A stretch of 64,000 bases of DNA from a virus (IMGVR_UViG_3300045988_126562), one strand, 5' to 3'; positions 16,783-38,003 are shown, counted from the stretch's first letter. The notes: generated by a model not told the origin, from the sequence alone. Numbers and translations: made by a program.

Positions 16783-16868
16783 CTCGGACGGTAGGATTCG
16801 AACCTACGTGAGAGTTTCCTCTCGGCAGTTTTGGAGACTGCTGGCATTAACCACTCGCCCACGGCCGA
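16783..16868 (-). tRNA. tRNA with CCA anticodon on a class II (Ser-like, long variable arm) scaffold
   Basis: TCGGCCG-TG-GGC/GCC D arm, anticodon arm GCAGT-CTCCAAA-ACTGC, 17-nt variable arm (GAGAG-GAAA-CTCTC), T arm GTAGG-TTCGAAT-CCTAC, discriminator G. Confidence 0.75.
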
Positions 16869-16870
16869 AT

Positions 16871-17143
16871 TTAATCTTCCACCATTTTTTTCAATTCTTC
16901 CACTGCATTTTTATATTCTTTTATATATTCTTTCAATGTAGTAACATCTCCAGTTTTTTTACAAGCTCTATAGTGAGCTATATACTTTAATGCAGTTTCC
17001 AAAGGGATACCGTAACTAGGTTTTCCCATTTCCTCTCTTTCATTTGACTTTCCTTTGTTTACTTTAACAAGTAATTGTAAATCAAAGAAATGTCCTGTGT
17101 CACTAGTAGATTCTAGTATAAAGTCTGATTCTTCTATTCTCAT
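16871..17143 (-). CDS. hypothetical protein
   Basis: 90-aa ORF between two tRNA genes. Confidence 0.5.
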   Translation of the reverse strand: MRIEESDFILESTSDTGHFFDLQLLVKVNKGKSNEREEMGKPSYGIPLETALKYIAHYRACKKTGDVTTLKEYIKEYKNAVEELKKMVED

Positions 17144-17159
17144 ACTTTTAAGTTATTTG

Positions 17160-17232
17160 AGTCCGGGATGGGACTTGAACCCATGATGCAGGTTTTGCAG
17201 ACCTGTGCCTTAACCAACTTGGCGACCCGAAC
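17160..17232 (-). tRNA. tRNA-Cys(GCA)
   Basis: Acceptor GTTCGGG/CCCGGAC, loop CTGCAAA, T loop TTCAAGT, discriminator U. Confidence 0.85.
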
Positions 17233-17267
17233 AAAAGGAGATTGATTTAACAATCTCCAACTAATTT

Positions 17268-18470
17268 TTATTGTTTCATTTTCTTAGCTACATCCATTAG
17301 CATATTCAAACCAACTGCATCCATTGCACTACCGCTTCCAGAATTGTTACCATTCATCATAATTTCTGGAACCCAACGTACATTAGATTTGCTAAGAGCC
17401 TCTGCTACACCTACAGTAGTTTTATATTGCCACTCAGCTGCTTCCTGAGGAGTTAAACCAGCCTGTACTTTAAGACGATTAGCTTCAGCCTCAGCTTTAC
17501 CTTCCTCAATAATTTTCTTAGCTTTTTCAGCTGCTTCTTTTGCTTGTAATTGAGCTACCTCAAATGCTTGCTGAGCTTTTGTCACCTCTACAGCCTTAAT
17601 TTTTTCCTGCTCCCACTTTGCAGATTCTGCGGCTGCTTTACCTTCCTCTGTAATTTGAATTGTACGCTGTACTGCCTCAGCTGCTTTAGCTTTAGCTGTT
17701 ACAATACTCATATCTGCTTCACGCTGTTTAGAAATCTGATCCAGAGTTGCTTTTTCATATTTCAAATCAGCAATAGATACTTGAGCTACACGTAATCCAT
17801 AGAAAGTAAATGGGCTTTCCTCCTGGCGTTTCAAACCATTTAAAGCAGTAGAATCAGATACTGTTTCTGCTACTTTAGTAATTTGTGTTTCATTAGTTAG
17901 AGGATTAATAGTCTCAATTTCTCTAATTGTAGTTTTATAAATACCGGAATTAAGTTGATCTGTAATATACTGATACAAATCGGTTCTTTTCTCACTAACT
18001 GACTCCAATGAACTCATCAAAGGACCACAAGCAATAATAACCTTTCCGATAGTAGGTTTAATTAAGTCGTTTACCAAACGATCCATTGAACCATAATGAA
18101 TTTGGATTCTTTCCAAATATTTAGGTTCAGTAGGCAACTCAATTCTAAGAGAGCCTAAAACATAACCCTTACCCTTGTCATTGTAAGTGATAGGCATTGC
18201 AGGACTTTCTGCATCATCAGGAATGAACAAATTACCGTTCCCATCTTCTGAAATTTGATTGAACCAAATTTGAGAAGTCTTGTCATAAATAGTTACCGTT
18301 CCCATCTTCTGAAATTGGAATCCCCCATTTGTCCAATATTCTAAAGTTCCAGTAAACGGAATTTGATTGATTCCAATTTGTTTCTTATCCATGTCTTCTC
18401 CTAATTTTGGAATCATACATAAAAATGCGAAAACTACTACTGCAATAAGTGCCAATACACCTTTTCTCAT
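17268..18470 (-). CDS. SPFH/band-7-like membrane protein
   Basis: 400 aa with an N-terminal TM segment, a central band-7-like region and a long Ala/Glu/Lys coiled coil (AKAKAAEAVQ...AEKAKKIIEEGKAEAEA). Confidence 0.55.
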   Translation of the reverse strand: MRKGVLALIAVVVFAFLCMIPKLGEDMDKKQIGINQIPFTGTLEYWTNGGFQFQKMGTVTIYDKTSQIWFNQISEDGNGNLFIPDDAESPAMPITYNDKGKGYVLGSLRIELPTEPKYLERIQIHYGSMDRLVNDLIKPTIGKVIIACGPLMSSLESVSEKRTDLYQYITDQLNSGIYKTTIREIETINPLTNETQITKVAETVSDSTALNGLKRQEESPFTFYGLRVAQVSIADLKYEKATLDQISKQREADMSIVTAKAKAAEAVQRTIQITEEGKAAAESAKWEQEKIKAVEVTKAQQAFEVAQLQAKEAAEKAKKIIEEGKAEAEANRLKVQAGLTPQEAAEWQYKTTVGVAEALSKSNVRWVPEIMMNGNNSGSGSAMDAVGLNMLMDVAKKMKQ

Positions 18471-18498
18471 AAATCTTAATGTTTTAAAAAGTTATAAA

Positions 18499-18663
18499 AA
18501 ATATTTATTCAAAAATTACATAATAAAAGGGAATAATAATCCTTCTAAGCTTATATTCTCTATTGGAAATTCTAGGAACTACCCCTCCCATTGATAAAAA
18601 TAACCATACATAATAAATGACTAGTAAAGCCATTAGAAATGGCATTAGAAACTTAAAAATCAT
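18499..18663 (-). CDS. small hydrophobic protein (holin candidate)
   Basis: 54-aa sub-threshold ORF (MIFKFLMPFLMALLVIYYVWLFLSMGG...). ATGA overlap with the upstream stop; two genes away from the glucosaminidase. Confidence 0.35.
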
Positions 18664-18947
18664 AGTAATAATAATTCTATATCATTAATTTTTTCTGAAA
18701 TCATTTTACTATACCAATATTCCTTGGCTTTCTTTAATTCTTCTTGTGTTGTAAGATTACCAAAAATGCAATCTCTACAATACATTCCGCTACATGGAGA
18801 AGAATGCCTATTATTTTCATAGGCTACACTATAGTCAGACTCACCATCAGATTTTAGATTACATCTGACTCCTGTTGTATTGAGAAATTTATATTTTCTT
18901 CTAACTTCTTCAATTACTAATCTTGGACGTCTGTATTCTCTTTCCAT
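18660..18947 (-). CDS. hypothetical Cys-rich protein with C-terminal ELLLL
   Basis: 95-aa ORF. Confidence 0.5.
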   Translation of the reverse strand: MEREYRRPRLVIEEVRRKYKFLNTTGVRCNLKSDGESDYSVAYENNRHSSPCSGMYCRDCIFGNLTTQEELKKAKEYWYSKMISEKINDIELLLL

Positions 18948-19371
18948 ATCTTTTTTCTATTGATTTAACTTTAGCTATATAATTTGGATCCTCTGCATAT
19001 CCTATTCTTTTTAAAAATGCGTAATAGTCTCCTTTTTGATACTTATATTGTACCTTATTTTTATAGGCTTTTACACTAGATTGCCAAGTGTCAAAACGAT
19101 AATATCTCTTATTTCTAGAGTCATATAAACCGAATAGATTATTATGCTTAGTACACCCATCCGACTTATAATGACCAGTTTCTAAGATTGACTGAGCTAC
19201 TACTACATGTGCATGTTGTAATCCATAGTACCTAGCGCATTGATACACTAACTCAGGAGTGGGATTCTTAGCTGTCATAAACTCAGGAACTTTATGTTCC
19301 ATTCTTTTACTATTAGATTGTAAACTGAACATACAAACACATAGTAAAATAGTGAATAAAATTTTCCTCAT
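18910..19371 (-). CDS. N-acetylglucosaminidase-type cell-wall hydrolase (endolysin candidate)
   Basis: Signal-like N-terminus. AQSILETGHY...HNNLFGL...YAEDPNY pattern of the FlgJ/glucosaminidase family. Confidence 0.65.
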   Translation of the reverse strand: MRKILFTILLCVCMFSLQSNSKRMEHKVPEFMTAKNPTPELVYQCARYYGLQHAHVVVAQSILETGHYKSDGCTKHNNLFGLYDSRNKRYYRFDTWQSSVKAYKNKVQYKYQKGDYYAFLKRIGYAEDPNYIAKVKSIEKRYGKRIQTSKISN

Positions 19372-19396
19372 TTTATTTAAGTTAAGTTATATATAG

Positions 19397-19468
19397 TGAT
19401 CCTATCAGGAATCGAACCTGAATTTAAAGTTTAGGAAACTTTTGTTCTATCCATTGAACTATAGGACC
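19397..19468 (-). tRNA. tRNA-Arg(CCU)
   Basis: GGTCCTA/TAGGATC acceptor, loop TTCCTAA, T loop TTCGATT. Confidence 0.85.
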
Positions 19469-19546: not shown

Positions 19547-19912
19547 ATTATATAACACAGAATTGCTACACTAATTTTACTTAGTCCCTGTAGATCTAAT
19601 TGCTAGCATAGGTGCTCTACAGATGTATCTCATTCGATTTATCCGGCCGGATTTACGAACTCTTGAATTGTAAGGTGGGTTTCCTCCCACGCTTCCGTGT
19701 TATAAAAAATAAGTAATTACCTAAGATCTCTAACAGATTAATACACTTGCTGTTAAAGATTACCTTAACCACCTCTACGCTTCCGTACCTTCACACCAGT
19801 GTATTGGTGTGGAAGCCTACCTCATTACTTTATTATATCTGCTTTCACGTATCAGACTAGTTCCTTCTTCTTGAAATCACGCTGAGATTCCACCCCAGAT
19901 GCCGGCTCGGAG
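19547..19912 (-). ncRNA. unassigned structured RNA candidate (366 nt)
   Basis: ORF-free and G+C-richer, flanked directly by tRNAs. Hairpins GTGGG-TTTCCT-CCCAC, CACACC..GGTGTG nested in GCTTCC..GGAAGC, and CTGTAGA..TCTACAG. Confidence 0.4.
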
Positions 19913-19984
19913 TGACCCCACAGGGATTCAAACCCTGATCGACGGATTAAGAGTCCGCAGCTCTAATCGTTGAGCTATGAGGTC
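19913..19984 (-). tRNA. tRNA-Lys(CUU)
   Basis: GACCTCA/TGGGGTC acceptor, loop CTCTTAA, T loop TTTGAAT. Confidence 0.85.
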
Positions 19985-22204: not shown

Positions 22205-22263
22205 AGTTTTATCTAGTTAATAATTAGTGGAGGAGGTGGGAGTCGAACCCACATCTCTGGATT

Positions 22264-22734
22264 TCAATAATGTGATGCGTTCTTACCAGAAAAAGTATCG
22301 GTTTGGGAATGACAATTAGGACATAGTAATCTAAGGTTTTCTATTCTATTATCCTTATTATTTCCATTAATATGGTCTAATTGTAATGATAGAGGCTTTT
22401 CTTGCCACTCATTAATACCACATATACTACACTTGTATTCTAGTAAATTAGATTCCAATAGCCTCTTCTTTAGAGAAGTGTTATTGGTGTAAGTAGAATC
22501 TTCTACTAGAATATCTTCTAAGGACTTATACCTTTCAGGTGAGTGATTTTTAGCATATCTATTAAAGTGGGATGTATCTATATCTAGCTCTCCTATCTTA
22601 TCTTTAATTAGTTTAGTAACTCCGCCTCCCTTTGACCTATAACCAAGCTTAAAAGCTATTTCGGAAACTGTCTCAGATTCTTTAACTATATTACTAAACT
22701 CTTCATCACTAAATTTACTTATTAAAGTTCCCAT
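22264..22734 (-). CDS. HNH homing endonuclease
   Basis: Track ORF trimmed to Met22 because the upstream codons translate tRNA-Phe. CSICG...LDHINGNNKDNRIENLRLLCPNCH. Its stop codon lies inside the 3' half of the split tRNA. Confidence 0.8.
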   Translation of the reverse strand: MGTLISKFSDEEFSNIVKESETVSEIAFKLGYRSKGGGVTKLIKDKIGELDIDTSHFNRYAKNHSPERYKSLEDILVEDSTYTNNTSLKKRLLESNLLEYKCSICGINEWQEKPLSLQLDHINGNNKDNRIENLRLLCPNCHSQTDTFSGKNASHY

Positions 22735-22739
22735 ATAGG

Positions 22740-22811
22740 TGGGACAGGAGGGAATTGAACCCCCAACGCCAGGTTCTTCAAACCTGCGCTCTACCATTGA
22801 GCTACTGTCCC
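22740..22811 (-). tRNA. tRNA-Phe(GAA)
   Basis: GGGACAG/CTGTCCC acceptor, loop TTGAAGA, T loop TTCAATT. Lies inside the insertion that splits the flanking tRNA. Confidence 0.85.
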
Positions 22812-22996
22812 TTTTATCTTAAAATCCAGCGCGAACTGACCACCTGCGCTACCCCTCCATTACGAGATCCATACTAATAGCCGACTATATTAGCGGTATC
22901 TCAACCTATCTTCTACTTTGGTCGTTGATAGGATAAAACTCCTCCTCTAGTGTGCATCAATATCCAAATTTAGAGAGGCAGTAGAAGGAAATATTT

Positions 22997-23323
22997 TTAC
23001 CAGCCATGACCATGCTCTCTTCTGTAAGCTTCAATTTGAGATTGCTCTCTTTCTATGCGGCAGTCTTTTATAAAGGTATCTTCTTTATCTTTACTAACAT
23101 TTTGTTCAAAAGTATTATTTTCTGGTAAATCAAGAAGATTTAAATCTATGGGAAAATCTGTACTATCAGCTAACCAATATATGTATTGCAAATCATAAGA
23201 TTTTATCCATCTCAAAGTCCTTCCTTTGTACTTTCCAAATTGAAGAGGCGAATCCAAATACGAAGATTTTAAATTTTTCAACTTATTAATTAGTTGAATA
23301 TATTCTTCTGAAGTAACTCTCAT
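22997..23323 (-). CDS. hypothetical protein with FGKYKGRTL...YIYWL motif
   Basis: Track ORF trimmed to Met22 (ATG just after the upstream stop). Confidence 0.45.
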   Translation of the reverse strand: MRVTSEEYIQLINKLKNLKSSYLDSPLQFGKYKGRTLRWIKSYDLQYIYWLADSTDFPIDLNLLDLPENNTFEQNVSKDKEDTFIKDCRIEREQSQIEAYRREHGHGW

Positions 23324-23324
23324 A

Positions 23325-23552
23325 TTAATGTTTATTACATAGACAATCTGGATCGTGAACTGTACCATAATTCGTTCCAGTAGCATTATTCAGCATGAAA
23401 GTTATATAATGATGTCCATTATAATAAAACTCTCTAGTTGTTGGAGCAGAATACACATTACCTGCTTTTACTGTAGTAAAAGAGTCAGAAATAACTATAT
23501 ACAGCATTAACGCTATTGATAAAGCTATTAATATCTTTAAAATCTTCTTCAT
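23325..23552 (-). CDS. small secreted/membrane protein
   Basis: 75 aa with a hydrophobic N-terminus. Confidence 0.5.
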   Translation of the reverse strand: MKKILKILIALSIALMLYIVISDSFTTVKAGNVYSAPTTREFYYNGHHYITFMLNNATGTNYGTVHDPDCLCNKH

Positions 23553-23577
23553 ATCTTATATATTTTACTAAATTTTG

Positions 23578-23648
23578 TGATTCCAGTCGGACTCGAACCG
23601 ACGTATTTGGTTTTAGGGACCAACGGATAGCCACTCTCCCATGAAATC
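23578..23648 (-). tRNA. suppressor tRNA, anticodon CUA (amber)
   Basis: GATTTCA/TGGAATC acceptor, anticodon arm TTGGT-CCCTAAA-ACCAA (C at position 33), T arm GTCGG-TTCGAGT-CCGAC. Confidence 0.75.
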
Positions 23649-23724
23649 CTGAGGCACTATTTTTGCAGTACAGTGCCAATTCATCTGACTCTTTGGTCAA
23701 CCACTCGCATCCCACCAGTTTGTT

Positions 23725-24036
23725 TCACCTGCCAAAGCCTTGTCCGTTGTAAGAGATTAATTTAAGGTTTTTAAAAAGTTTTCCAGAATCTGTAATTGCT
23801 ATTGCTGTAGTTTTATTATTTAAATCAGGCTCTTTGAATAAAGAAAAATCTCTGTTTAACAAATTTAATTTTTCTTTCCATTCTATTATATTAGCAGACA
23901 GATAGATTAAATACTGATTATTCCATTTTTGGTTAGGATGATCAATAATCCATTGAGCAACGGCATGTCCGCCTTGTACACATCCATATATAGGATTAAG
24001 ATTCTGATCTATCAGAACGTATAATCTCTCCTGCAT
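23725..24036 (-). CDS. PTH2-like peptidyl-tRNA hydrolase candidate
   Basis: 103 aa. YVLIDQNL...GCVQGGHAVAQW and C-terminal ...KEPDLNNKTTAIAI follow the PTH2 pattern (DL..GK.aAQ..HA ... T.laiGP). Confidence 0.45.
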   Translation of the reverse strand: MQERLYVLIDQNLNPIYGCVQGGHAVAQWIIDHPNQKWNNQYLIYLSANIIEWKEKLNLLNRDFSLFKEPDLNNKTTAIAITDSGKLFKNLKLISYNGQGFGR

Positions 24037-24496
24037 ATTTGTCTACTAAACTATTAACCGAATTAATAAACACCTTACCTAAATAAGTTTTTGAAATGTC
24101 AGATTTAGAATCATATGGATCTAAGCCAAAACCATTCCATCCACTTAGCCATTTAGCATGATTAAGAATAGATTTAATATAGTCCTCACTATTCGAAATT
24201 AAGTTATGTTTTAAAATAAAATAAGTGACATACATAACAAATAACTCATCCCTATTCTTCTTTACTTGGTAATCCGCATTAGTTCTAGTTTTATAGTCAT
24301 TCGATTTTCTGTCTGATTTAGCTTTAATTTGCTTAGCTACTAATTCTTTTATTGCTTGTTTCATTGCTTCCATAATAAGTAATTTAAATTGAGTTTTTAC
24401 AACTAATCTATTGATTTTTGATTTCAAAGGTTCAGGTAAAACTCTTATGGAGGCCATAATTTTCGCAGCAACGTCTACATGTGTTTCATCATTCAT
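23996..24496 (-). CDS. hypothetical protein
   Basis: 166-aa ORF. Confidence 0.55.
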   Translation of the reverse strand: MNDETHVDVAAKIMASIRVLPEPLKSKINRLVVKTQFKLLIMEAMKQAIKELVAKQIKAKSDRKSNDYKTRTNADYQVKKNRDELFVMYVTYFILKHNLISNSEDYIKSILNHAKWLSGWNGFGLDPYDSKSDISKTYLGKVFINSVNSLVDKYAGEIIRSDRSES

Positions 24497-24541
24497 AAAT
24501 TTTTAATTGTTTAACATCTGGAAACTAAAAGTTTTAATTTG

Positions 24542-24626
24542 TGTACCCTCTGGGACTCGAACCCAGCGTGGGATTACTCCCTCCGGATTAAAAGTCCGGT
24601 GCAGTAGCCAGCTCTGCTCAGGGTAC
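24542..24626 (-). tRNA. tRNA with UUU anticodon on a class II (long variable arm) scaffold
   Basis: GTACCCT/AGGGTAC acceptor, D arm GCAG-AGCTGGCTA-CTGC, anticodon arm CCGGA-CTTTTAA-TCCGG, 16-nt variable arm (GGG..CCC), T arm CTGGG-TTCGAGT-CCCAG, discriminator A. Confidence 0.75.
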
Positions 24627-24633
24627 AGATTAC

Positions 24634-24699
24634 AGGATTCATATAAACAGTCCAATATATCCCTAATATACTCTAGTTTAAATTTGCTGTAAGAATCCT
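24634..24699 (-). ncRNA. modular RNA unit (mini form)
   Basis: Closing helix AGGATTC/GAATCCT. 5' boundary TTACAGCAAAT, 3' boundary CCTGTAA. Confidence 0.45.
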
Positions 24700-24720
24700 T
24701 ATTTCTTTAATACAGTGATG

Positions 24721-24728
24721 CAAAGGTA
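24721..24728 (-). promoter_or_regulatory. Bacteroidota-type -7 promoter element candidate
   Basis: Minus strand reads TACCTTTG (TAnnTTTG) followed by CATCAC. The same TTTGCATCAC context recurs at 45112. Confidence 0.35.
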
Positions 24729-24811
24729 GTAATTCTTTTTTACTATTCCAAAATTTTCTATAAGATTTTTATACTAATAGTATACGTATATACTAAATAA
24801 GCGACCTATTG

Positions 24812-25237
24812 TTATAAGTCGCCTTTCTTTATTTTTTTATACAAAGAATAAGGAATTTCATTAAAATTTTCCTTCCCTTCTTCTCTTAATGCTATCATTT
24901 TTACTCCATTTCTGTAGAATACAGTAGGATCAGATTCCAATACATAGTTATCTTTTATATGATTCTCATTGCAATATTCATGGGAATTAAGAAACGGCAA
25001 AACAAGCTTAACCATCTCTCTTATAGGAATAGTAACTTCCTGCATCATAGGAATCCAGTTTGCACAGGTATTTACTGTATGAAGTGGAACGTTACTACCA
25101 GATATAGTTTGCATTCCAGAATTACCCATAAATCGTACATAATCATGGGCTACTATAATTCTTTTTTCTCTAGAAAAATCTAGATCTTCTAATTCTACTT
25201 CAAATTTTCTTTCACTAATCTGTTTTGTTATCTTCAT
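24812..25237 (-). CDS. hypothetical protein
   Basis: 141-aa ORF. Confidence 0.55.
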   Translation of the reverse strand: MKITKQISERKFEVELEDLDFSREKRIIVAHDYVRFMGNSGMQTISGSNVPLHTVNTCANWIPMMQEVTIPIREMVKLVLPFLNSHEYCNENHIKDNYVLESDPTVFYRNGVKMIALREEGKENFNEIPYSLYKKIKKGDL

Positions 25238-25253
25238 ATCTTAAAATTTAATG

Positions 25254-25594
25254 TGGACGATGAGGGATTCGAACCCTCGTCCTAACTACTTCTCAATAAC
25301 ATAGTATATGCGAAATTACCTTTTTATAGAAGGCTAACTAGGGGAAGCCGATTGGCATCCACTCCACCACTCCATTATAAGTTGGAGAACTATAGAAACC
25401 AATGGTCATTTCTGTTCCTAAGCTGACTTACACTCGACTCTCTTTGCAATTAAGCAGCGATACGAACTTCGTCGATTTCGCGAGAGAAAGAAATTGCATT
25501 ATTCTTTCCATTTAATTGTTTGTACTTATAAGGTAGTCACAACCTTTTCACCTATGTTACCGTTCGTCATAGCAGTCAAAAGCCTGTATCGCCC
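25254..25594 (-). ncRNA. ssrA: tmRNA (transfer-messenger RNA)
   Basis: The 5' GGGCGAT pairs with the 3' ATCGTCC-A, giving G3:U70 and A73. T arm GAGGG-TTCGAAT-CCCTC. Internal tag frame GCA ATT TCT ... GCT GCT TAA (25450..25497) encodes AISFSREIDEVRIAA. Confidence 0.8.
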
Positions 25595-28344: not shown

Positions 28345-28391
28345 TGCCTTCAGTGGGACTCGAACCCACACGGCCGAAGCCACTAGATCCT

Positions 28392-29228
28392 CAAGCTATG
28401 AGTCTTAGCTTCGACTATGTCTTAACCATATCTTTCGACTTAGGTTGCTGGTATATAGTCTGTACACATTTATAAATTGGGTTGGGCGTCAGGTGTCCCT
28501 CCGTTGTTTTCAGCCTATGTTTTCAAGGCATCCTTCTTTTAAAACATACGAACAAAAACGAATGTTCCCAATTTAACTTAGCTCGGCGTTATTTACATTT
28601 ATAAGGCTGTAACCTTCACCGAATTAGCCAGCTTCTACTTCAAGAGTTTCCTCTTGAGCACTCAATACCTTTCCTGAATAATTGTCTGTTTGTGCATGAC
28701 AATTTGGACAAAGAACTTGTAGATTTTCTAAACGATTATCTGTATGAATTCCGTTTAAATGGTGTAATTCAAGTGAAATAGGATGTCCTAACCACTCAGT
28801 TAAACCGCAGCATTCACATTTATGTTCTTTTATTCCTTCAGACAGAAGACGATTACGGATATTATGAGAAGTCCATCCTGAATTTTCAATTAAAATTTCA
28901 GAAATGTCTTTCTTTTTGATTGACGGATGTTCTCCACTTTTTAATCCTTTATTCCATCGTGCTCCTGTAAAATGACTCATATCTAAATTTAATTGTTGTA
29001 TCTTCTTTTTTACTGTATTAAGATTACCTCCTTTTGGAGATATTCCGATAATTCTACACACTTCGGCGTAAGAATGTCCTTCTTTTACAGCATTAATAAA
29101 TTGTTCTTCTGTATATTTTTTACTTGCCATGGTATATTATTTTAATACACTATTATACTAATAAAAATTGTATACACAAAAAATAATTTTAACTTAATAC
29201 TTCCAATTAATTTAGATGTAATTTTTTT
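28392..29228 (-). mobile_element. group I intron with HNH ORF in the tRNA-Leu anticodon loop
   Basis: Exon ends in U and intron ends in G. The 3' non-coding part carries R/S-like elements GTACAGACTATATACC and TAAGACATAGTCGAAG (P7 pairing GACTAT/ATAGTC). Confidence 0.7.
28624..29130 (-). CDS. intron-encoded HNH homing endonuclease
   Basis: Paralog of 22264..22734. CECCG...LHHLNGIHTDNRLENLQVLCPNCH. Confidence 0.8.
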   Translation of the reverse strand: MASKKYTEEQFINAVKEGHSYAEVCRIIGISPKGGNLNTVKKKIQQLNLDMSHFTGARWNKGLKSGEHPSIKKKDISEILIENSGWTSHNIRNRLLSEGIKEHKCECCGLTEWLGHPISLELHHLNGIHTDNRLENLQVLCPNCHAQTDNYSGKVLSAQEETLEVEAG

Positions 29229-29708: not shown

Positions 29709-30785
29709 TTACATTATTTCTTTATCACAGTTAAACATAGACAATTCTATTCCTCTGAACTTAGAATATATTGGTTGAAGATCAGAAAAGCTACATTCTT
29801 TTAGATTGTTAATATAAGTTAGTTGGTCTTTGAGATCCCAACAAGTAAAACATATTTTGGAGGAAACGTTTATACCTTCTTTTTCCGTTATAATTCTGTT
29901 ACAATTAATGGAATGGTTAAGAAGATCTAAATCTAATTTAGCGTATTTTAAAGATCCTTGAAACTTATTATATACATTAATTTCTTCAGGATTAACAATG
30001 TTCTCTAGTGGTTCTGATAATATAGGCCCATTTCCATGTCTAGTTATATATATTCTAGATACATAATTTACTATTATATCTTTCACACCAATAGACTTTA
30101 TAATTTTATAAGCATTTTCTCCAGTTGTATTAGAAGGAGTAGTGTGTGGATAGAATCCAAATTTTTGATCTAGTAGTATTCCTTGAGATCCTTCAAATAT
30201 AATATTAGAAAAGCTAGGTTTTAAGAATCCTATTTTATTTCTTTTGAACCAGTTAATATAAGATTCTGCTAATTCTTCTATATTAACACAGGTTTCATTA
30301 TAATACTCTAATATAGAATTTAGCTTGGAGAGCAACACTTTTTTATTTTGACATTCTTCCACTGTAAGGGAGCAGCATTCCATAACTCTTTTAATAGCCG
30401 GCCAATATCCGGTTCCTACGGTTCCATGTTTTAAATTATCCTTATCTTTTCTTTGAAAAGATATATCCATAGGAGTAATTACTTGACATAAGGGATTATA
30501 TATTACCTTTGGAGTTACATTGAACTTTTCTAATAAAATTTTACTTTCAACTATAGCAGACAAGGGGTTTACAAAACAATACTCTGACCAATAAGTAGGA
30601 CATCCTTTAAAAGTTCCACTTCCAAAATTACTGAAAACGTGTTTTTTGTTTCCAGAAATAACTGTATGACCACTTTGTGATCCGCCACTAAATCTTACTA
30701 TAATGGAGTTTGAGTCAGATAGGTTATGCACTATCTGACCCTTGCCCTCGTCTCCAAAAAAGGCTCCTAAAACTATATGTATCAT
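29709..30785 (-). CDS. adenylosuccinate synthetase family protein, short form (PurA/PurZ-like)
   Basis: 358 aa with P-loop GDEGKGQ, RFSGGSQSGHTV, GTVGTGYW, FEGSQG and TRHGNGP. Confidence 0.7.
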   Translation of the reverse strand: MIHIVLGAFFGDEGKGQIVHNLSDSNSIIVRFSGGSQSGHTVISGNKKHVFSNFGSGTFKGCPTYWSEYCFVNPLSAIVESKILLEKFNVTPKVIYNPLCQVITPMDISFQRKDKDNLKHGTVGTGYWPAIKRVMECCSLTVEECQNKKVLLSKLNSILEYYNETCVNIEELAESYINWFKRNKIGFLKPSFSNIIFEGSQGILLDQKFGFYPHTTPSNTTGENAYKIIKSIGVKDIIVNYVSRIYITRHGNGPILSEPLENIVNPEEINVYNKFQGSLKYAKLDLDLLNHSINCNRIITEKEGINVSSKICFTCWDLKDQLTYINNLKECSFSDLQPIYSKFRGIELSMFNCDKEIM

Positions 30786-34350: not shown

Positions 34351-34480
34351 AAGTTAGTTTTACCAGAATAGGACTCGAACCTATAACCTCTTGATAAAAT
34401 TCAAGGCTCTACCAATTGAGCTATACGTCTCTGGATTTAAGTTGGTAGACGTAAATTTTTTATATTGCTGTTCCTAACTT
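34351..34480 (-). ncRNA. modular RNA unit with tRNA-like domain (non-canonical order)
   Basis: Closing helix AAGTTAG/CTAACTT and boundary GAACAGCAAT. Inside: acceptor-type hairpin TACGTCT..AGACGTA, D arm TA-GCTC-AATTGGTA-GAGC, hairpin CTTGA-ATTTTA-TCAAG, T arm ATAGG-TTCGAGT-CCTAT. Confidence 0.45.
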
Positions 34481-35369: not shown

Positions 35370-35472
35370 AGAAGACTATGCCGACTTGCACTTACGGCTG
35401 GATTTGAACCAGTTTAATTTGAATTTCAGTCAAATTTGTGAACCATTTTATTTGATTTGCTGTAAGTCTTCT
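35370..35472 (-). ncRNA. modular RNA unit with T-loop hairpin
   Basis: Closing helix AGAAGACT/AGTCTTCT. Boundaries TACAGCAAAT and TCTGTTA. Inside: TTTGA-CTGAAAT-TCAAA and CTGG-TTCAAAT-CCAG hairpins. Confidence 0.45.
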
Positions 35473-35480
35473 TATAAATC

Positions 35481-35584
35481 AGGATACCTAAACTCAATTG
35501 TGCTCCAAATAGCAATTCTCCACATTGGTGAATATAAGACTCGAACTTATTATAACTAGTTACTGAATTTGCTGTCTGTATCCT
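35481..35584 (-). ncRNA. modular RNA unit with circularly permuted tRNA-like domain
   Basis: Closing helix AGGATAC/GTATCCT. Order: T arm ATAAG-TTCGAGT-CTTAT, acceptor hairpin ATTCACC-AATGT-GGAGAAT, D arm GCT-ATTTGG-AGC. Confidence 0.55.
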
Positions 35585-35734
35585 TGTTTGATGGATGCCA
35601 GCCGTTTCTATTCCATCATTGCGTACTACGTTGCTGGCTAACGTCTAAGACTTCCATGTCCTCACGTTATCTTAGAATTAGTGTGATTATTATTGCCTAG
35701 CTAATTTCTTAGCTGGGAGGATTACGCTAAAGAG

Positions 35735-35807
35735 TACCCCCAACGGGATTCGAACCCGTGACTTCACATCGAAAGTGTGACGACTTAAACCACTTGTCGA
35801 TAGGGGC
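35735..35807 (-). tRNA. tRNA-Glu(UUC)
   Basis: GCCCCTA/TGGGGGT acceptor, arm TCACA-CTTTCGA-TGTGA, T arm ACGGG-TTCGAAT-CCCGT. Confidence 0.85.
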
Positions 35808-35875
35808 ATATATAGGTTACTAATCTCACGATCCATAACCTATTAAATTTATTATGAACACTTTTTATTGTGTTT

Positions 35876-36973
35876 TTAATCCTGAGGAATACTCATCATA
35901 ATTGTAGCACGATTCCAATTATTTTCCTCATATTGTTGTACTTTATCTCCTTCAGCACTGACTACCAAACGAGATTCCTCTACTCCATATTTTACTAATA
36001 CCTCTTTCACTGATTCAGCTCTCTTTTTACTTAATTCCATATTATATTCTGGAGTTCCTGTATCAGCGTCTGCATATCCAGTAATAGAAATACGTATATC
36101 TTTATTATCCTTCAAATAAGTAGCTATGTTCTCTAAATTTGCCATTTGATCATCAGCTATCTTAGATGAATTGATAGTAAATCTTACTGTAGTAGGAGCC
36201 ACCTCTTTTAAAACAACAATATTTTCTACTGTTACAGTATCAATAGTGGTTACGACCTTTGGAGCTTTTTCACATTCCTGTCTAAGTTTATTGATTTCCT
36301 CATTTAGAGCGTCAATATCCTCTTGATCATAAGATGGGATGTATGTGAATCCTCTAGTCCCATCATGATTTTTAAACTTATATGTGATGCCAGCTGTTAA
36401 ATTACACATTCCATCATATCTAGCTCCTCCTACTACTCCGTCGAACTTATCATTAAGAGCAGACATATTTCCTTCTATATTAAGCTGAATAGATTTAGAT
36501 AGATCAACATTTACCTGAACTCCTACTCTAGGAACTACATAATCTCCTATTGGTAGTACTCCATTATCAAATGTATGTGCATAACCTACTCCTCCTATCA
36601 ATACTAAGTTAACTGGTCTGTCATAATTCTGAGAGAATAAATTTAACGGATTCAGCATTGCATCTAAGTAAAATCCATATCTGTTAATAACAGAAATTTC
36701 ATTTGTAGGAACAACATGATTCTGTCCCCACTCTCCTTGAATACGAGTTCCCAAAACTGGAGTCCAATATTTATTAAGGGAAACATTTACCGTTGGACCA
36801 AAAATTCTCTTTGTGTCCACTGATTTGTAATTATCCCCAAATGTGGCATTAGTTCCAGCTCCTACACTGATAGACCAATTATCAGTGAATTTATACTTCG
36901 GCATTCTTAACTCTTGTGCATTTAAGCACATAACGCTCATAAGAGCAATTAAAAGAAATAATACTTTCTTCAT
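35876..36973 (-). CDS. OmpA-family outer-membrane protein
   Basis: Signal peptide, beta-barrel-like N-terminal half and a C-terminal OmpA-like domain (ITGYADADTGTPEYNMELSKKRAESV). Confidence 0.75.
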   Translation of the reverse strand: MKKVLFLLIALMSVMCLNAQELRMPKYKFTDNWSISVGAGTNATFGDNYKSVDTKRIFGPTVNVSLNKYWTPVLGTRIQGEWGQNHVVPTNEISVINRYGFYLDAMLNPLNLFSQNYDRPVNLVLIGGVGYAHTFDNGVLPIGDYVVPRVGVQVNVDLSKSIQLNIEGNMSALNDKFDGVVGGARYDGMCNLTAGITYKFKNHDGTRGFTYIPSYDQEDIDALNEEINKLRQECEKAPKVVTTIDTVTVENIVVLKEVAPTTVRFTINSSKIADDQMANLENIATYLKDNKDIRISITGYADADTGTPEYNMELSKKRAESVKEVLVKYGVEESRLVVSAEGDKVQQYEENNWNRATIMMSIPQD

Positions 36974-37000
36974 CTTACTTGTTTAATTTAAAAAAAATAT

Positions 37001-37435
37001 TTATATACACTGTAGAAATTTTTCAATTTCCTCAACTATTTTATCATATTCTTCTTTAGATATTTCCTTTGCTATATCACTTTGTCCATAAGTTATATAA
37101 GGATTATTAAACCACAAAGGATTTATATGTCTATGCTTTTCTATAGACACCGAAATTTTATCTCTGCTTTTATACTTTTCATATAAAGTGTACCCAGAAT
37201 CAAAGTTTCTACTGTTTTGCTCAAATAGAGATTTGTCTATATAAACAAATCCAGTAACTTCAAAATTGAATTTCAGAATAAAATATTTCCCTATTAGATT
37301 TTCATACCATTTATTTTTATTTTCTTCTAGCTGCTCTAATTCTTTCTTTCTTTTCTTAGATTCCTCTTCTTCAGCTTCAATATATTCTTTTAGAGAGGCA
37401 TCTGGATGTATTCTGTAATAATCTTTCACATTCAT
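37001..37435 (-). CDS. hypothetical protein
   Basis: 144-aa ORF. Confidence 0.55.
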   Translation of the reverse strand: MNVKDYYRIHPDASLKEYIEAEEEESKKRKKELEQLEENKNKWYENLIGKYFILKFNFEVTGFVYIDKSLFEQNSRNFDSGYTLYEKYKSRDKISVSIEKHRHINPLWFNNPYITYGQSDIAKEISKEEYDKIVEEIEKFLQCI

Positions 37436-37456
37436 AGTAAAAATTCATTAATATTG

Positions 37457-37528
37457 TGGACACGGCGGGACTCGAACCCGATCCTCCTGAGTGCAAATCA
37501 AGCGCATTCCCAATTATGCTACCGGCCC
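37457..37528 (-). tRNA. tRNA-Ala(UGC)
   Basis: GGGCCGG 5' end with a G3:U70 pair, loop TTTGCAC, T loop TTCGAGT. Two mismatches in the acceptor stem. Confidence 0.7.
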
Positions 37529-37541
37529 ATAAAGCTGGATT

Positions 37542-37895
37542 TTACACCAGCAAAAGATCTTCTTCATTAGGAATATCCAGCACTATTGGATCAATTCCGA
37601 AATCAGAATACTCTATAATACTCATTGGAAGCCAACAGTTAGGTAAACAATCAAGATCTACCCTAAAAGAAGAATCACTAGTATCTACTTCTTCAATATC
37701 AGATAGTGTTAAAGGTGTAGATAATTCTAGAATATCAACATCTATACCTACTTCTTCGTCTTCATGTTCAAGCTCACAGCCTGCATATTCCCAACCTTCT
37801 TCTAATAATTCTTCCTCTGTCTTGATTCTAAATTTTCCAGATTCAATCAAAGCCAGAAATTCCGTTTCATTCAGATCTTTAACTTTCTTTCTCAT
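37542..37895 (-). CDS. hypothetical acidic protein with C-terminal EEDLLLV
   Basis: Track ORF 37542..37958 trimmed to Met22 because the upstream codons translate a tRNA. Confidence 0.5.
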   Translation of the reverse strand: MRKKVKDLNETEFLALIESGKFRIKTEEELLEEGWEYAGCELEHEDEEVGIDVDILELSTPLTLSDIEEVDTSDSSFRVDLDCLPNCWLPMSIIEYSDFGIDPIVLDIPNEEDLLLV

Positions 37896-37916
37896 ATTTA
37901 TAATATTGTGAATTTG

Positions 37917-38003
37917 CGCACGCGGAAGGGTTCGAACCTTCGATGGGGCTTTCGCCACGGTAGATTAACAGTCTACTGCCTTCGACCACTCGGCCACACG
38001 TAC
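37917..38003 (-). tRNA. tRNA with GUU anticodon on a class II (Ser-like, long variable arm) scaffold
   Basis: GTACGTG/CGCGTGC acceptor, Ser-type D arm GCC-GAGTGGTCGAA-GGC, arm GTAGA-CTGTTAA-TCTAC, 18-nt variable arm, T arm GAAGG-TTCGAAC-CCTTC, discriminator G. Confidence 0.75.

What the first reader, a model, noticed from the sequence alone, without database searches (positions are those of the whole stretch)
16783..38003. Three class II (long variable arm) tRNA scaffolds carry CCA, UUU and GUU anticodons
The three genes are:
- 16783..16868: loop CTCCAAA, discriminator G73
- 24542..24626: loop CTTTTAA, discriminator A73
- 37917..38003: loop CTGTTAA, discriminator G73

All have 16-18-nt variable arms. 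The first and third also have Ser-type D arms (GGC/GCC, GCC-GAGTGGTCGAA-GGC). In bacteria, long variable arms are normally restricted to Ser, Leu and Tyr tRNAs.

CCA is one base away from a Ser anticodon (CGA), and GUU is one base away from another (GCU). SerRS and LeuRS do not read the anticodon. These tRNAs could therefore insert Ser or Leu at UGG, AAA/G and AAY codons.

Alternatively they could be charged by anticodon-reading TrpRS, LysRS and AsnRS. Their discriminators fit that reading too. They are the only Trp, Asn and UUU decoders in the window.

Either outcome is unusual: deliberate recoding, or class-switched scaffolds, perhaps to escape host anticodon nucleases.
Basis: partly seen in the sequence, partly recalled or inferred. 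Interest (0 to 1): 0.7.

Follow-up and report, generated by a model that had tools for sequence, protein, structure and literature searches.

The report
Phage Trp, Lys, Asn tRNAs with extra arm
A gut phage encodes tryptophan, lysine and asparagine tRNAs that carry an extra hairpin normally seen only in Ser/Leu/Tyr tRNAs; they look like ordinary decoders with an added arm, and they belong to a large phage-wide family (also in phiKZ and phiCbK) that I could not find described.

Summary
Three tRNA genes sit at the stated coordinates, but on the minus strand. They have CCA, UUU and GUU anticodons and 16-18-nt variable arms forming 4-5-bp hairpins capped by GNRA loops.

The recoding interpretation is not supported:
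- None of the three has the bacterial Ser marks (G1-C72/G2-C71, 1-nt spacer after the arm). The phage's own Ser tRNAs have them.
- Each has the discriminator of its anticodon's amino acid: G73 for Trp, A73 for Lys, G73 for Asn.
- The phage's UGG, AAA and AAY codons align with W, K and N in relatives. Catalytic Walker-A lysines are encoded by AAA.
- A 99%-identical genome lacks the long-arm tRNA-Lys(UUU) and has a normal tRNA-Lys(UUU). In the window that normal gene carries a single wobble change, to CUU.

The three are not oddities. Capped scans of viral contigs gave at least 102, 109 and 90 loci with long-arm Trp, Asn and Lys tRNAs. Each family keeps its own identity marks and shows strong covariation in the extra stem. 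phiKZ, 4MG, phiCbK and XacN1 carry examples.

Long arms favour isotypes whose synthetases read the whole anticodon. Why phages add the arm is unknown; evasion of tRNA-targeting defences is plausible but untested.

The parts
16783..16868 (-). Long-arm tRNA-Trp (anticodon CCA). U1-A72, C5xU68 mismatch, G73, class-II-type D arm (GGCG/UGCC, loop AGUGGUUAA). No encoded CCA end.
   Evidence: ARAGORN; Rfam 48.7 bits; model R1 75.8 bits; fold. Identical in L001-L004. A homologue in L016 has different stems.
16808..16824 (-). Variable arm of tRNA-Trp: C-GAGAG-GAAA-CUCUC-AC. 5-bp stem, GNRA loop, 2-nt 3' spacer.
   Evidence: Family covariation of the V stem.
24542..24626 (-). Long-arm tRNA-Lys (anticodon UUU). 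G1-C72, A73, G8 instead of U8, 4-bp D stem.
   Evidence: 52.4 bits; z = -3.8. Homologues L035 and L078 carry compensatory changes in the acceptor, anticodon and V stems.
24567..24582 (-). Variable arm of tRNA-Lys: A-GGGA-GUAA-UCCC-ACG. 4-bp stem, GNRA loop, 3-nt 3' spacer.
   Evidence: In L035/L078 the stem is GGAA/UUCC, a double-sided change.
37917..38003 (-). Long-arm tRNA-Asn (anticodon GUU). G1-C72, U2.G71, G73, D arm GCC-GAGUGGUCGAA-GGC.
   Evidence: (53.9 bits). Homologues in L020 and L158, and in cultured phages phiKZ and 4MG.
37942..37959 (-). Variable arm of tRNA-Asn: C-GUGGC-GAAA-GCCCC-AUC. 5-bp stem with one UxC mismatch, GNRA loop, 3-nt 3' spacer.
19912..19984 (-). Ordinary (class I) tRNA-Lys with anticodon CUU. 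It is the same gene as the tRNA-Lys(UUU) of the 99%-identical genome L003, apart from the wobble base.
   Evidence: (alignment A1).
22251..25252 (.). 3.0-kb window-specific insertion. It brought in tRNA-Phe, suppressor tRNA-CUA, the long-arm tRNA-Lys(UUU) and an HNH endonuclease gene.
   Evidence: blastn of the window against L001/L003; tRNAs; HNH.
22264..22797 (-). HNH homing endonuclease gene inside the 3-kb insertion. Relatives lie next to long-arm tRNAs in 46 unrelated phage loci.
   Evidence: Pfam HNH/HNH_3; blastp recurrence.

Best explanation
**What they are.** The three genes are working elongator tRNAs for Trp, Lys and Asn. They are members of three large, phage-borne tRNA families.

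**Architecture.** A normal 7/5 cloverleaf carries an added variable-arm hairpin. Typically this is 3-5 bp, often GNRA-capped, followed by a 2-4-nt spacer. That geometry resembles bacterial tRNA-Tyr or tRNA-Leu, not tRNA-Ser.

**Charging (inferred).** TrpRS, LysRS and AsnRS take their specificity from the anticodon triplet plus the discriminator, and for Trp also the first pair. The body can therefore change class without changing amino-acid identity. The host enzymes should charge these tRNAs with the cognate amino acid, and they should decode UGG, AAA/AAG and AAY normally. This AT-rich phage uses AAA and AAU heavily.

**Mobility (shown).** The genes sit in a tRNA region that is reshuffled by cassettes associated with HNH homing endonucleases.

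**Shown:**
- the structure and the covariation of the extra stem;
- the identity marks;
- the absence of codon reassignment;
- the family distribution;
- the UUU/CUU exchange between the two Lys genes.

**Inferred:**
- actual charging by the host enzymes;
- the purpose of the arm.

**Favoured purpose (about 1 in 3).** The arm makes the phage copy structurally unlike the host's class I tRNA. It would then escape proteins that inactivate host tRNAs, either host defence nucleases and toxins or a phage-made one.

**Main alternative for the arm.** It is a tolerated or stabilising insertion with no specific target.
For: **Structure.** ARAGORN and Rfam calls. The MFE folds contain the extra hairpin.

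**Covariation.** On 107 distinct long-arm tRNAs the three V-stem pairs are paired in 87-90% of cells. Each has 39-43 double-sided changes and all Watson-Crick pair types.

**Identity marks in the window.** G73, A73 and G73. None of the three has G2-C71 (15).

**Identity marks family-wide** (28, 43, 69, 70):
- long-arm Trp: G73 in 72/78; A1-U72 or G1.U72 in 64/78
- long-arm Asn: G73 in 99/117; U1-A72 in 62 and G1-C72 in 44
- long-arm Lys: A73 in 85/99
- long-arm Cys: U73
- long-arm His: G-1/C73

**Published identity rules.** Asn is set by the anticodon plus G73 and is transplantable into another body. Lys is set by the anticodon plus A73. Trp is set by the anticodon, G73 and the 1:72 pair (review PMC9976931).

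**Arm geometry in the same phage loci** (70):
- Ser: 4-6-bp stem, 1-nt spacer, G1G2 in 88%
- Leu: 2-nt spacer, A73
- Tyr: 3-bp stem, 3-nt spacer, A73
- long-arm Trp/Asn/Lys: 3-4-bp stem, 3-4-nt spacer

**Codon test** (51). Window TGG aligns with W in 74% of cases (next F, Y). AAA aligns with K (52%), AAG with K (58%), AAT with N (45%) and AAC with N (51%). The Walker-A lysines of DnaB and the helicase are AAA.

**Lys exchange.** The window has the long-arm Lys-UUU plus a class I Lys-CUU. The 99%-identical L003 has only a class I Lys-UUU, which differs by the wobble base alone.

**Nearest neighbours.** They are long-arm tRNAs with the same anticodon from other phages; for Lys, class I Lys tRNAs come next.

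**Independent origins.** Some long-arm Trp tRNAs are a plain bacterial tRNA-Trp body with a GNRA hairpin inserted.

**Isotype bias.** 11% of tRNAs from isotypes read by the full anticodon have a long arm, against 4% of the others (88, with 86).

**Cultured phages.** phiKZ, 4MG, CcrBL9, phiCbK and XacN1.
Against: - No charging, expression or modification data exist for any of these tRNAs.
- G73 plus a long arm is part of Ser identity. The window's Trp tRNA has the most Ser-like arm of the three (5-bp stem, 2-nt spacer), so some serylation cannot be excluded.
- The Lys tRNA combines A73, U35 and a Tyr-like arm, which are partial TyrRS determinants.
- It also has G8 where U8 is nearly universal: 84 of 91 long-arm Lys tRNAs have U8.
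- The Trp tRNA has a C5xU68 mismatch and U1-A72 rather than the commoner A1-U72.
- The codon test shows what the codons mean in evolution. It cannot detect a few per cent of misincorporation by the phage tRNA.
- The alignment used for the covariation count was fitted to the model.
- The anti-defence purpose has no direct support in the window. No tRNA nuclease, ligase or synthetase gene was recognised.
Confidence: 0.7

Rival explanations
1. **Deliberate recoding or mistranslation.** SerRS, LeuRS or TyrRS ignores the anticodon and charges these class-II-shaped tRNAs. The phage would then insert Ser, Leu or Tyr at UGG, AAA/G and AAY codons.
For: - The long arm is the main Ser determinant, and G73 favours Ser.
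- Precedents exist: nev-tRNAs are charged with Leu, allo-tRNAs insert Ser or Ala, and Ser-bodied tRNAs with a CCA anticodon occur in cellular genomes.
- The window's Trp tRNA has a 5-bp V stem and G73.
Against: - All three lack G1-C72/G2-C71 and the 1-nt spacer that this phage's Ser tRNAs carry.
- LeuRS needs A73, which is absent from the Trp and Asn tRNAs.
- TyrRS needs A73 plus G34 and U35. No single tRNA here has all of them.
- The discriminators track the anticodon's amino acid across hundreds of family members.
- Codon tallies show W, K and N, and catalytic lysines are AAA.
- Acquisition of the long-arm UUU tRNA coincides with the resident Lys-UUU becoming CUU.
Confidence: 0.06
2. **Dual identity.** The tRNAs are mainly charged with the cognate amino acid but are also partly serylated or tyrosylated. 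The result would be low-level statistical mistranslation during infection.
For: - The features are mixed: G73 plus a long arm on Trp and Asn; A73, U35 and a Tyr-like arm on Lys.
- Nothing in the sequence rules out a few per cent of mischarging.
Against: - The short V stems and 3-4-nt spacers differ systematically from the Ser tRNAs in the same genomes. That looks like selection against SerRS recognition.
- The acceptor stems lack the Ser determinants.
- Mistranslating very frequent codons (AAA, AAU) would be costly.
Confidence: 0.1
3. **Not translation substrates.** The genes are decoys that soak up tRNA-targeting nucleases, tRNA-like regulatory RNAs, or decaying duplicates.
For: - About one third of loci with a long-arm Asn or Lys-UUU tRNA also hold a normal tRNA with the same anticodon. 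The long-arm copy could therefore have another role.
- The window's Lys tRNA has G8 and its Trp tRNA has an acceptor mismatch.
Against: - In the window they are the only phage-encoded Trp, Asn and UUU decoders.
- All four canonical stems, the T loop, G18G19, U33 and the identity nucleotides are conserved with covariation.
- The UUU/CUU exchange implies a decoding role.
- The families are old and widespread, which is unlike pseudogenes.
Confidence: 0.07
4. **Same identity as in the best explanation, but the arm has no specific function.** The variable region is the one place where a tRNA tolerates insertions. Fast-evolving, recombining phage tRNA genes picked up stable hairpins that are neutral, or that merely stabilise poorly modified tRNAs.
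For: - The arm has multiple independent origins, including plain hairpin insertions into a normal tRNA-Trp body.
- Other embellishments exist, such as the 13-nt D-loop insert in 4MG tRNA-Lys.
- The isotype bias fits 'tolerated where the synthetase reads only the anticodon'.
- GNRA loops are simply very stable caps.
Against: - The arm is maintained by compensatory substitutions over long divergence.
- Geometry is convergent (3-4 bp, 3-4-nt spacer) across isotypes.
- A third of the phages with a long-arm Asn or Lys-UUU tRNA keep both a long and a short tRNA with the same anticodon. That is hard to explain if the two are equivalent.
- In the genome scan, real long-arm Trp genes were few and about half sat in phage-like tRNA arrays.
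Confidence: 0.3

Closest known systems
Canonical bacterial class II tRNAs (Ser, Leu, Tyr), especially tRNA-Tyr
   Same: - 7/5 cloverleaf with a helical variable arm.
- Many members have the class-II-type D arm (3-bp stem, 11-nt loop GAGUGGUCGAA).
- Arm geometry (3-5-bp stem, 2-4-nt 3' spacer) matches phage Tyr and Leu tRNAs.
   Different: - The anticodons are CCA, UUU and GUU.
- The discriminators are those of Trp, Lys and Asn.
- There is no G1-G2 Ser acceptor.
- No member has the A73 + G34 + U35 combination of Tyr.
nev-tRNAs: nematode V-arm tRNAs with Gly or Ile anticodons, charged with Leu (Hamashima 2012, PMC3333845)
   Same: Class II scaffold carrying an anticodon outside the Ser/Leu/Tyr set.
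   Different: - nev-tRNAs keep Leu identity elements, derive from tRNA-Leu and are charged with Leu.
- The phage tRNAs carry the identity marks of their anticodon's amino acid.
- They form isoacceptor-specific families.
- They decode abundant rather than rare codons.
allo-tRNAs and (8/4) phage tRNA-His/tRNA-Ser (Mukai 2017, PMC5389517)
   Same: - Non-canonical tRNA shapes with long V arms and diverse anticodons.
- Some occur in phage tRNA clusters.
   Different: - allo-tRNAs have 8/4 or 9/3 acceptor/T branches, tRNA-Sec-like D arms and G73/U73 Ser-like identity.
- The tRNAs here are standard 7/5 with cognate discriminators.
Phage tRNAs that evade host tRNA nucleases through anticodon-stem-loop changes (T5 tRNA-Lys versus PARIS AriB, PMC11464382; van den Berg 2023, PMC10264068)
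   Same: - Phage-encoded copies of the tRNAs that defences target, including Lys.
- The copies differ structurally from the host tRNA.
- They are carried in mobile tRNA clusters rich in homing endonucleases.
   Different: - The known cases are point changes in the anticodon stem-loop, with resistance demonstrated.
- Here the difference is a whole extra arm, and resistance has not been tested.
Annotated tRNA-Asn of Pseudomonas phage phiKZ (PHIKZ_t02) and of Escherichia phage 4MG; tRNA-Lys of Caulobacter phages phiCbK and CcrBL9
   Same: Same architecture and the same isoacceptors: long-arm Asn-GUU with G73, and long-arm Lys with a GNRA-capped V hairpin.
   Different: - Sequence identity to the window's genes is only about 72-80%.
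- The records name them by anticodon only.
- I found no paper commenting on the arm.

Membership tests
tRNA (Rfam RF00005), canonical 7/5 cloverleaf | Score above the Rfam gathering threshold; 7-bp acceptor, 5-bp T stem, 5-bp anticodon stem, 7-nt anticodon loop with U33, T loop UUCGAAU/UUCGAGU/UUCGAAC, G18G19 | tested here: met
   48.7, 52.4 and 53.9 bits against a gathering score of 29. ARAGORN cloverleaves. Exceptions: Trp has one C5xU68 mismatch and Lys has G8.
Class II (long variable arm) tRNA architecture | Variable region longer than 10 nt that forms a helix | tested here: met
   17, 16 and 18 nt with 5-, 4- and 5-bp stems. Covariation of the stem across 107 sequences.
Bacterial tRNA-Ser identity | G1-C72 and G2-C71 acceptor pairs (conserved in most bacterial tRNA-Ser; PMC9976931) | tested here: not met
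   - Trp: U1-A72 / C2-G71.
- Lys: G1-C72 / U2-A71.
- Asn: G1-C72 / U2.G71.
- 88% of phage Ser tRNAs start with GG, against 5-39% of the long-arm Trp, Asn and Lys tRNAs.
Bacterial tRNA-Ser identity | Large variable arm with Ser-type orientation (in these phages: 4-6-bp stem and a 1-nt 3' spacer) | tested here: not met
   Spacers in the window are 2, 3 and 3 nt. Ser tRNAs have a 1-nt spacer in 118/173 cases, while the long-arm families mostly have 3-4 nt. The Trp tRNA (5 bp, 2 nt) comes closest.
Bacterial tRNA-Ser identity | Discriminator G73 | tested here: inconclusive
   G73 is present in the Trp and Asn tRNAs, but it is also the Trp and Asn determinant. The Lys tRNA has A73.
Bacterial tRNA-Leu identity | Discriminator A73 (crucial in E. 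coli; PMC9976931) | tested here: not met
   Trp and Asn have G73. Only Lys has A73, which is also the Lys determinant.
Bacterial tRNA-Tyr identity | A73 together with U35 (and G34) | tested here: not met
   Asn has G34 and U35 but G73. Lys has A73 and U35 but U34. Trp has neither.
tRNA-Trp identity (bacterial) | Anticodon CCA, discriminator G73, first base pair (A1-U72 in model bacteria) | tested here: inconclusive
   CCA and G73 are met. The first pair is U1-A72 in the window. Across the family it is A-U in 43, G.U in 21 and U-A in 5 of 78. The requirements of the host (Bacteroidota-type) TrpRS are unknown.
tRNA-Lys identity (bacterial) | Anticodon UUU plus discriminator A73 | tested here: met
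   Family A73 in 85/99. Rule from PMC9976931. Actual charging was not testable here.
tRNA-Asn identity (bacterial) | Anticodon GUU plus discriminator G73 | tested here: met
   Family G73 in 99/117. Rule from PMC9976931. Actual charging was not testable here.
allo-tRNA / tRNA-Sec-like | 8/4, 9/3 or 8/5 acceptor/T branch | tested here: not met
   All three are 7/5. Rfam assigns them to RF00005.
Anti-defence phage tRNA (nuclease-resistant copy) | Demonstrated resistance to a host tRNA-targeting nuclease that cleaves the host isoacceptor | not testable with these tools
   Only circumstantial evidence. Lys and Asn are known nuclease targets (own knowledge; Lys). Long and short copies co-occur. The cassettes are associated with HNH endonucleases.

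The most novel reading that the evidence does not exclude
Phages across many hosts have repeatedly 'class-II-ised' those tRNAs whose synthetases read only the anticodon and discriminator: Trp, Asn, Lys, Cys, His, Met, Thr and Ile. This creates a parallel tRNA set with the same meaning but a different shape.

The extra arm would be a general counter-defence. It would sterically block tRNA-targeting immune nucleases or toxins, or spare phage tRNAs from a phage-made nuclease that destroys host tRNAs. HNH homing endonucleases would spread these resistant tRNAs as cassettes.
Probability: 0.3. Interest if true: 0.8.

Novelty: new variant of a known kind. Interest (0 to 1): 0.62.

Why it matters
Textbooks restrict the long variable arm in bacteria to Ser, Leu and Tyr tRNAs.

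Hundreds of phage tRNAs break that rule while keeping the identity marks of Trp, Asn, Lys, Cys, His and other amino acids. This suggests three things:
- tRNA class is not tied to amino-acid identity where the synthetase reads the anticodon.
- Isotype-versus-anticodon 'inconsistencies' reported for phage tRNAs may partly reflect this architecture rather than recoding.
- There may be an unrecognised layer in the arms race over tRNAs between phages and bacterial immunity.

The architecture occurs in tractable phages (phiKZ, 4MG, phiCbK, XacN1), so the question can be tested directly.

For genome annotation, it warns against reading such tRNAs as evidence of an altered genetic code.

Tried and rejected
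**Close annotated relatives.** A megablast of 24.5 kb of the window found only two short hits of about 40 bp, no relative. By TerL the phage is only a distant crAss-like relative, at 29% identity to crAss-like phages.

**Origin from the phage's own Ser, Leu or Tyr genes by a recent anticodon mutation.** Rejected. The nearest neighbours are long-arm tRNAs with the same anticodon in other phages.

**MAFFT alignment for covariation.** It misplaced the longer V stems. I replaced it with a covariance-model alignment.

**Helper gene in the window (synthetase, tRNA nuclease, RNA ligase).** None was recognised among about 45 ORFs. Most have no family match.

**Proteins recurring next to long-arm tRNAs in 360 viral loci.** Only HNH endonucleases recurred broadly. 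The Ro60/TROVE-like protein recurred almost only in loci whose proteins are 34-57% identical to the window's, so it is uninformative.

**TAG recoding linked to the suppressor tRNA.** Reading TAG as sense gives 49 long frames against 46, so there is no support within this window.

**4MG's 84-nt 'tRNA-Lys' as a long-arm example.** Rejected. Its extra length is a 13-nt D-loop insert.

**Scan of cellular genomes.** Most of the 120 hits were chance matches. Only 17 were real long tRNA-Trp genes.

**Literature.** Seven full-text searches found no description of this architecture in phages.

Full report
**1. The observation.**

ARAGORN finds 26 tRNAs and a tmRNA in the window, all on the minus strand. 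Three of them lie at 16782/3-16868, 24541/2-24626 and 37916/7-38003. They have anticodons CCA, UUU and GUU and lengths of 86, 85 and 87 nt.

Rfam's tRNA model scores them at 48.7, 52.4 and 53.9 bits against a gathering score of 29.

Read in the RNA sense, each is a 7/5 cloverleaf with an extra hairpin between the anticodon and T arms:
- Trp: C-GAGAG-GAAA-CUCUC-AC
- Lys: A-GGGA-GUAA-UCCC-ACG
- Asn: C-GUGGC-GAAA-GCCCC-AUC

The discriminators are G, A and G. The hairpin is part of the minimum-free-energy fold of all three.

They are the only Trp, Asn and UUU decoders in the window. The strand was not given. The D arms are of the generic class II type rather than specifically Ser-type, and the Lys tRNA has a class-I-like 4-bp D stem and an unusual G8.

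**2. Context.**

The window is phage DNA. It encodes a large terminase, a primase, a DnaB-like helicase, a PurZ-like enzyme and a lysozyme/transglycosylase. GC content is 32%.

TerL is only about 29% identical to those of crAss-like phages of Bacteroides and Flavobacterium hosts. The best hits are unannotated human-gut phage contigs.

No synthetase, tRNA nuclease or RNA-repair gene was recognised among about 45 ORFs tested. Charging would therefore depend on host enzymes, or on genes outside the window.

**3. Relatives show that this is a conserved architecture, not an accident.**

Loci syntenic with the 400-aa protein next to tRNA-Trp were fetched from IMG/VR at 100% down to 29% protein identity.

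They contain further long tRNAs with anticodons outside the Ser/Leu/Tyr set:
- a tRNA-Trp (L016)
- a tRNA-Asn (L020, with a D loop identical to the window's)
- tRNA-Thr, tRNA-His and tRNA-Met

Their stems differ from the window's by compensatory changes.

Structure-aware pattern scans of IMG/VR used the anticodon loop, a spacer of 21-30 nt and the T loop. ARAGORN confirmed real long-arm tRNAs in most of them:
- Trp: 102 loci, 78 unique sequences
- Asn: 109 of 117 loci
- Lys-UUU: 90 of 113 loci

The contigs come from a great many different metagenome samples.

A covariance model built from 11 long-arm Trp tRNAs aligned 136 long-arm tRNAs, 107 of them distinct. The three V-stem pairs are paired in 87-90% of sequences. 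Each has 39-43 double-sided substitutions and all Watson-Crick pair types. One caveat applies: the alignment is fitted to the model.

Cultured phages carry the same thing, annotated simply by anticodon:
- phiKZ tRNA-Asn
- Escherichia phage 4MG and Cronobacter GAP31 tRNA-Asn
- Caulobacter CcrBL9 and phiCbK tRNA-Lys
- Xanthomonas XacN1 tRNA-Lys and an 86-nt tRNA-Gly

In the collection of 185,579 cellular genomes the Trp pattern mostly gave chance matches. Only 17 of 120 hits were real. About half of those lie in dense tRNA arrays on short MAG contigs, which is a phage-like context.

**4. Which amino acid?**

*(a) Identity marks.* According to the Giege-Eriani review:
- Asn identity is the anticodon plus G73, and can be transplanted into another tRNA body.
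- Lys identity is the anticodon plus A73.
- Trp identity is the anticodon, G73 and the first base pair.
- Bacterial Ser relies on the size and orientation of the arm, with conserved G1-C72 and G2-C71.
- Leu needs A73.
- Tyr needs A73 and U35.

The window's tRNAs have G73 (Trp), A73 (Lys) and G73 (Asn), and none has G2-C71.

The same holds family-wide:
- G73 in 72/78 long-arm Trp, with A1-U72 or G1.U72 in 64/78
- G73 in 99/117 long-arm Asn
- A73 in 85/99 long-arm Lys
- U73 in long-arm Cys
- G-1/C73 in long-arm His

*(b) Arm geometry.* The phages' own canonical tRNAs give the yardstick.

| tRNA | V stem | 3' spacer | Other |
|---|---|---|---|
| Ser | 4-6 bp | 1 nt in 118/173 | G1G2 in 88% |
| Leu | 3-5 bp | 2 nt | A73 |
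| Tyr | 3 bp | 3 nt | A73 |
| long-arm Trp/Asn/Lys/Cys/His/Thr | 3-4 bp | 3-4 nt | see (a) |

The window's three have 5, 4 and 5 bp with spacers of 2, 3 and 3 nt. By contrast, the isolated CCA-anticodon tRNAs in cellular genomes (Pelagibius, Saccharibacteria and others) do have full Ser bodies. This shows what a real 'Ser at UGG' candidate looks like.

*(c) Codons.* In tblastn alignments with relatives at 30-85% identity:

| Window codon | Commonest aligned residue | Share |
|---|---|---|
| TGG | W (next F, Y) | 74% |
| AAA | K | 52% |
| AAG | K | 58% |
| AAT | N | 45% |
| AAC | N | 51% |

There is no Ser, Leu or Tyr enrichment. The catalytic Walker-A lysines of DnaB and of the SF2 helicase are encoded by AAA.

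*(d) A natural experiment.* A 99%-identical genome (L001/L003) lacks a 3.0-kb segment, 22251-25252. That segment carries tRNA-Phe, a suppressor tRNA-CUA, the long-arm tRNA-Lys(UUU) and an HNH endonuclease. L003 has an ordinary tRNA-Lys(UUU). In the window the same gene differs only at the wobble base, giving CUU. The simplest reading is that the long-arm tRNA took over UUU-type Lys decoding.

Together these points make deliberate recoding unlikely. I cannot exclude minor mischarging, especially of the Trp tRNA, which has G73, a 5-bp arm and a 2-nt spacer.

**5. Origin and distribution across isotypes.**

Each window tRNA is most similar to long-arm tRNAs with the same anticodon in other phages: 72-78% for Trp, 77-93% for Lys and 72-83% for Asn. 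For Lys, ordinary Lys tRNAs come next. None is closest to the phage's own Ser or Leu tRNAs.

Some long-arm Trp tRNAs are a typical bacterial tRNA-Trp body with a GNRA hairpin simply inserted. Others have class-II-type D arms. The arm therefore arose more than once.

In loci chosen through a different isotype, a long variable region (10 nt or more) occurs at these rates:

| Isotype | Share with a long arm |
|---|---|
| Cys | 30% |
| His, Met | 14% |
| Ile, Thr, Asn, Lys | 13% |
| Trp | 9% |
| Ala, Gly, Val, Pro, Arg, Glu, Asp, Gln, Phe | 2-5% |

The enriched set is 8 of the 11 identities that, according to the review, use the complete anticodon as a determinant. The pooled figures are 11% against 4%, odds ratio 2.8, p about 2e-8. 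The sequences are not independent, so the p-value is only indicative.

My inference is that the body plan can change class where the synthetase looks mainly at the anticodon and discriminator. Phe, Gln and Asp are also on the review's list but are not enriched. That remains unexplained.

**6. What the arm is for.**

This is not shown. Three facts bear on it:
- The arm is kept by compensatory evolution, and its geometry is similar across isotypes.
- About a third of loci with a long-arm Asn (35/109) or Lys-UUU (33/90) also hold a normal tRNA with the same anticodon. That would be redundant if the two forms were equivalent.
- The tRNA region is mobile. All three window-specific insertions carry HNH endonucleases, and relatives of these endonucleases lie next to long-arm tRNAs in dozens of unrelated phages.

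Phage tRNAs are known to rescue infection from tRNA-cleaving defences. T5 tRNA-Lys resists PARIS AriB, which cuts host tRNA-Lys at positions 40/41, next to the variable region. From my own knowledge, Lys and Asn are classic nuclease targets (PrrC, colicin E5).

A shape change that blocks such proteins is therefore my favoured purpose, at roughly one chance in three. A tolerated or stabilising insertion is the main alternative.

**7. Comparison with known systems and novelty.**

The nearest described cases are these:
- nev-tRNAs, which are class II tRNAs with Gly or Ile anticodons but are charged with Leu.
- allo-tRNAs and the 8/4 phage tRNA-His and tRNA-Ser, which have a different acceptor/T geometry and Ser-like identity.

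The tRNAs here are 7/5 and keep cognate identity marks.

Seven full-text searches found no description of this architecture in phages. One paper notes unexplained isotype-versus-anticodon inconsistencies in phage tRNAs. The genes themselves are already in GenBank records of well-known phages.

I therefore rate the finding a new variant of a known kind. It is ordinary in meaning, since no recoding is involved. It is unexpected in form and breadth, and it can be tested directly in phiKZ, 4MG and phiCbK.

**8. Verdict.**

- Observation: confirmed.
- Recoding reading: not supported.
- 'Class-switched scaffold with cognate identity' reading: supported, at about 0.7.
- Purpose of the arm: open.
- Interest: 0.62.

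Noticed in passing
window 28399-29227 (intron hit 28391-28687, ORF 28624-29130, minus strand): An 830-bp window-specific insertion sits exactly in the anticodon loop of a tRNA-Leu(UAG) gene. That gene is intact in the 99%-identical genome L003 (3002-3084). The insertion scores as a group I intron (Rfam Intron_gpI, 39 bits, E = 3e-8, below the gathering score). It carries an HNH endonuclease (phrog_10822, E = 2e-49). Neither ARAGORN nor Rfam calls this split tRNA in the window.
   Followed up: partly
window 23577-23648 (minus strand): A suppressor tRNA with anticodon CUA, which ARAGORN labels 'Pyl'. It arrived with the 3-kb insertion and is absent from the 99%-identical relative. Reading TAG as sense hardly lengthens the ORFs in the window (49 long frames against 46), so there is no sign of TAG recoding here. 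Late genes outside the window were not examined.
   Followed up: partly
window 39497-40033 (ORF 39494-39970, minus strand): A third window-specific insertion, 537 bp, carrying an HNH_3 endonuclease. It lies directly next to tRNA-Met (40033-40106).
   Followed up: partly
window 25251-25594 (minus strand): A phage-encoded tmRNA with tag peptide GKNNAISFSREIDEVRIAA. Several relatives (L017, L020, L023 and others) also encode tmRNAs, with different tags.
   Followed up: no
window 29709-30785 (minus strand): A PurZ-like adenylosuccinate-synthetase homologue (Pfam Adenylsucc_synt 8e-39; phrog_1211 'aminooxy adenylosuccinate synthetase'). It hints at a 2-aminoadenine (Z) DNA genome.
   Followed up: no
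window 42950-44653 (minus strand): A Ro60/TROVE-like RNA-binding protein (DUF7788/DUF2828, phrog_850) lying between tRNA-Pro and tRNA-Leu. Homologues were found in 12 of the 360 viral loci, most of them 34-57% identical. No Y-RNA-like partner was looked for.
   Followed up: partly
window, whole; and 34367-34424 (minus strand): The 26-tRNA set has no tRNA-Tyr, although relatives L013, L016 and L032 have one. There is also a partial tRNA-like Rfam hit (34.7 bits, model positions 7-64) that ARAGORN does not call.
   Followed up: no
L231 (Pelagibius sp.), L243 (Saccharibacteria), L248 (Agrobacterium sp.), L265, L271 and L254: positions as listed: Isolated tRNA genes in cellular genomes have a full Ser-type body (G1G2 acceptor, 5-6-bp V stem, 1-nt spacer, G73) but a CCA anticodon loop. 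They are candidates for genuine Ser-at-UGG mistranslating tRNAs, or for mutated tRNA-Ser(CGA).
   Followed up: no
L519 368-458 (Caulobacter phage phiCbK JX163858.1, between the annotated tRNA-Lys-CUU and tRNA-Leu-CAG): A 91-nt long-arm tRNA-Lys(UUU) that ARAGORN finds but the GenBank record does not annotate. It sits directly after the annotated long-arm tRNA-Lys(CUU).
   Followed up: no
L166 2737-2820 (Escherichia phage 4MG): The annotated 84-nt tRNA-Lys(UUU) owes its length to a 13-nt insertion in the D loop, not to a variable arm. This is another kind of structural embellishment in a phage tRNA.
   Followed up: partly
viral loci L035-L517: Long variable arms are strongly biased by isotype. 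Cys, His, Met, Ile, Thr, Asn, Lys and Trp are at 9-30%; all other isotypes are at 2-5%. The enriched isotypes mostly decode ANN and UNN codons. They also overlap the list of identities read through the full anticodon, yet Phe, Gln and Asp are on that list and are not enriched.
   Followed up: partly
window 24619 (position 8 of tRNA-Lys-UUU): G8 replaces the near-universal U8. It is conserved in the close homologues L035 and L078 but is rare in the family: U8 in 84 of 91 long-arm Lys tRNAs.
   Followed up: partly
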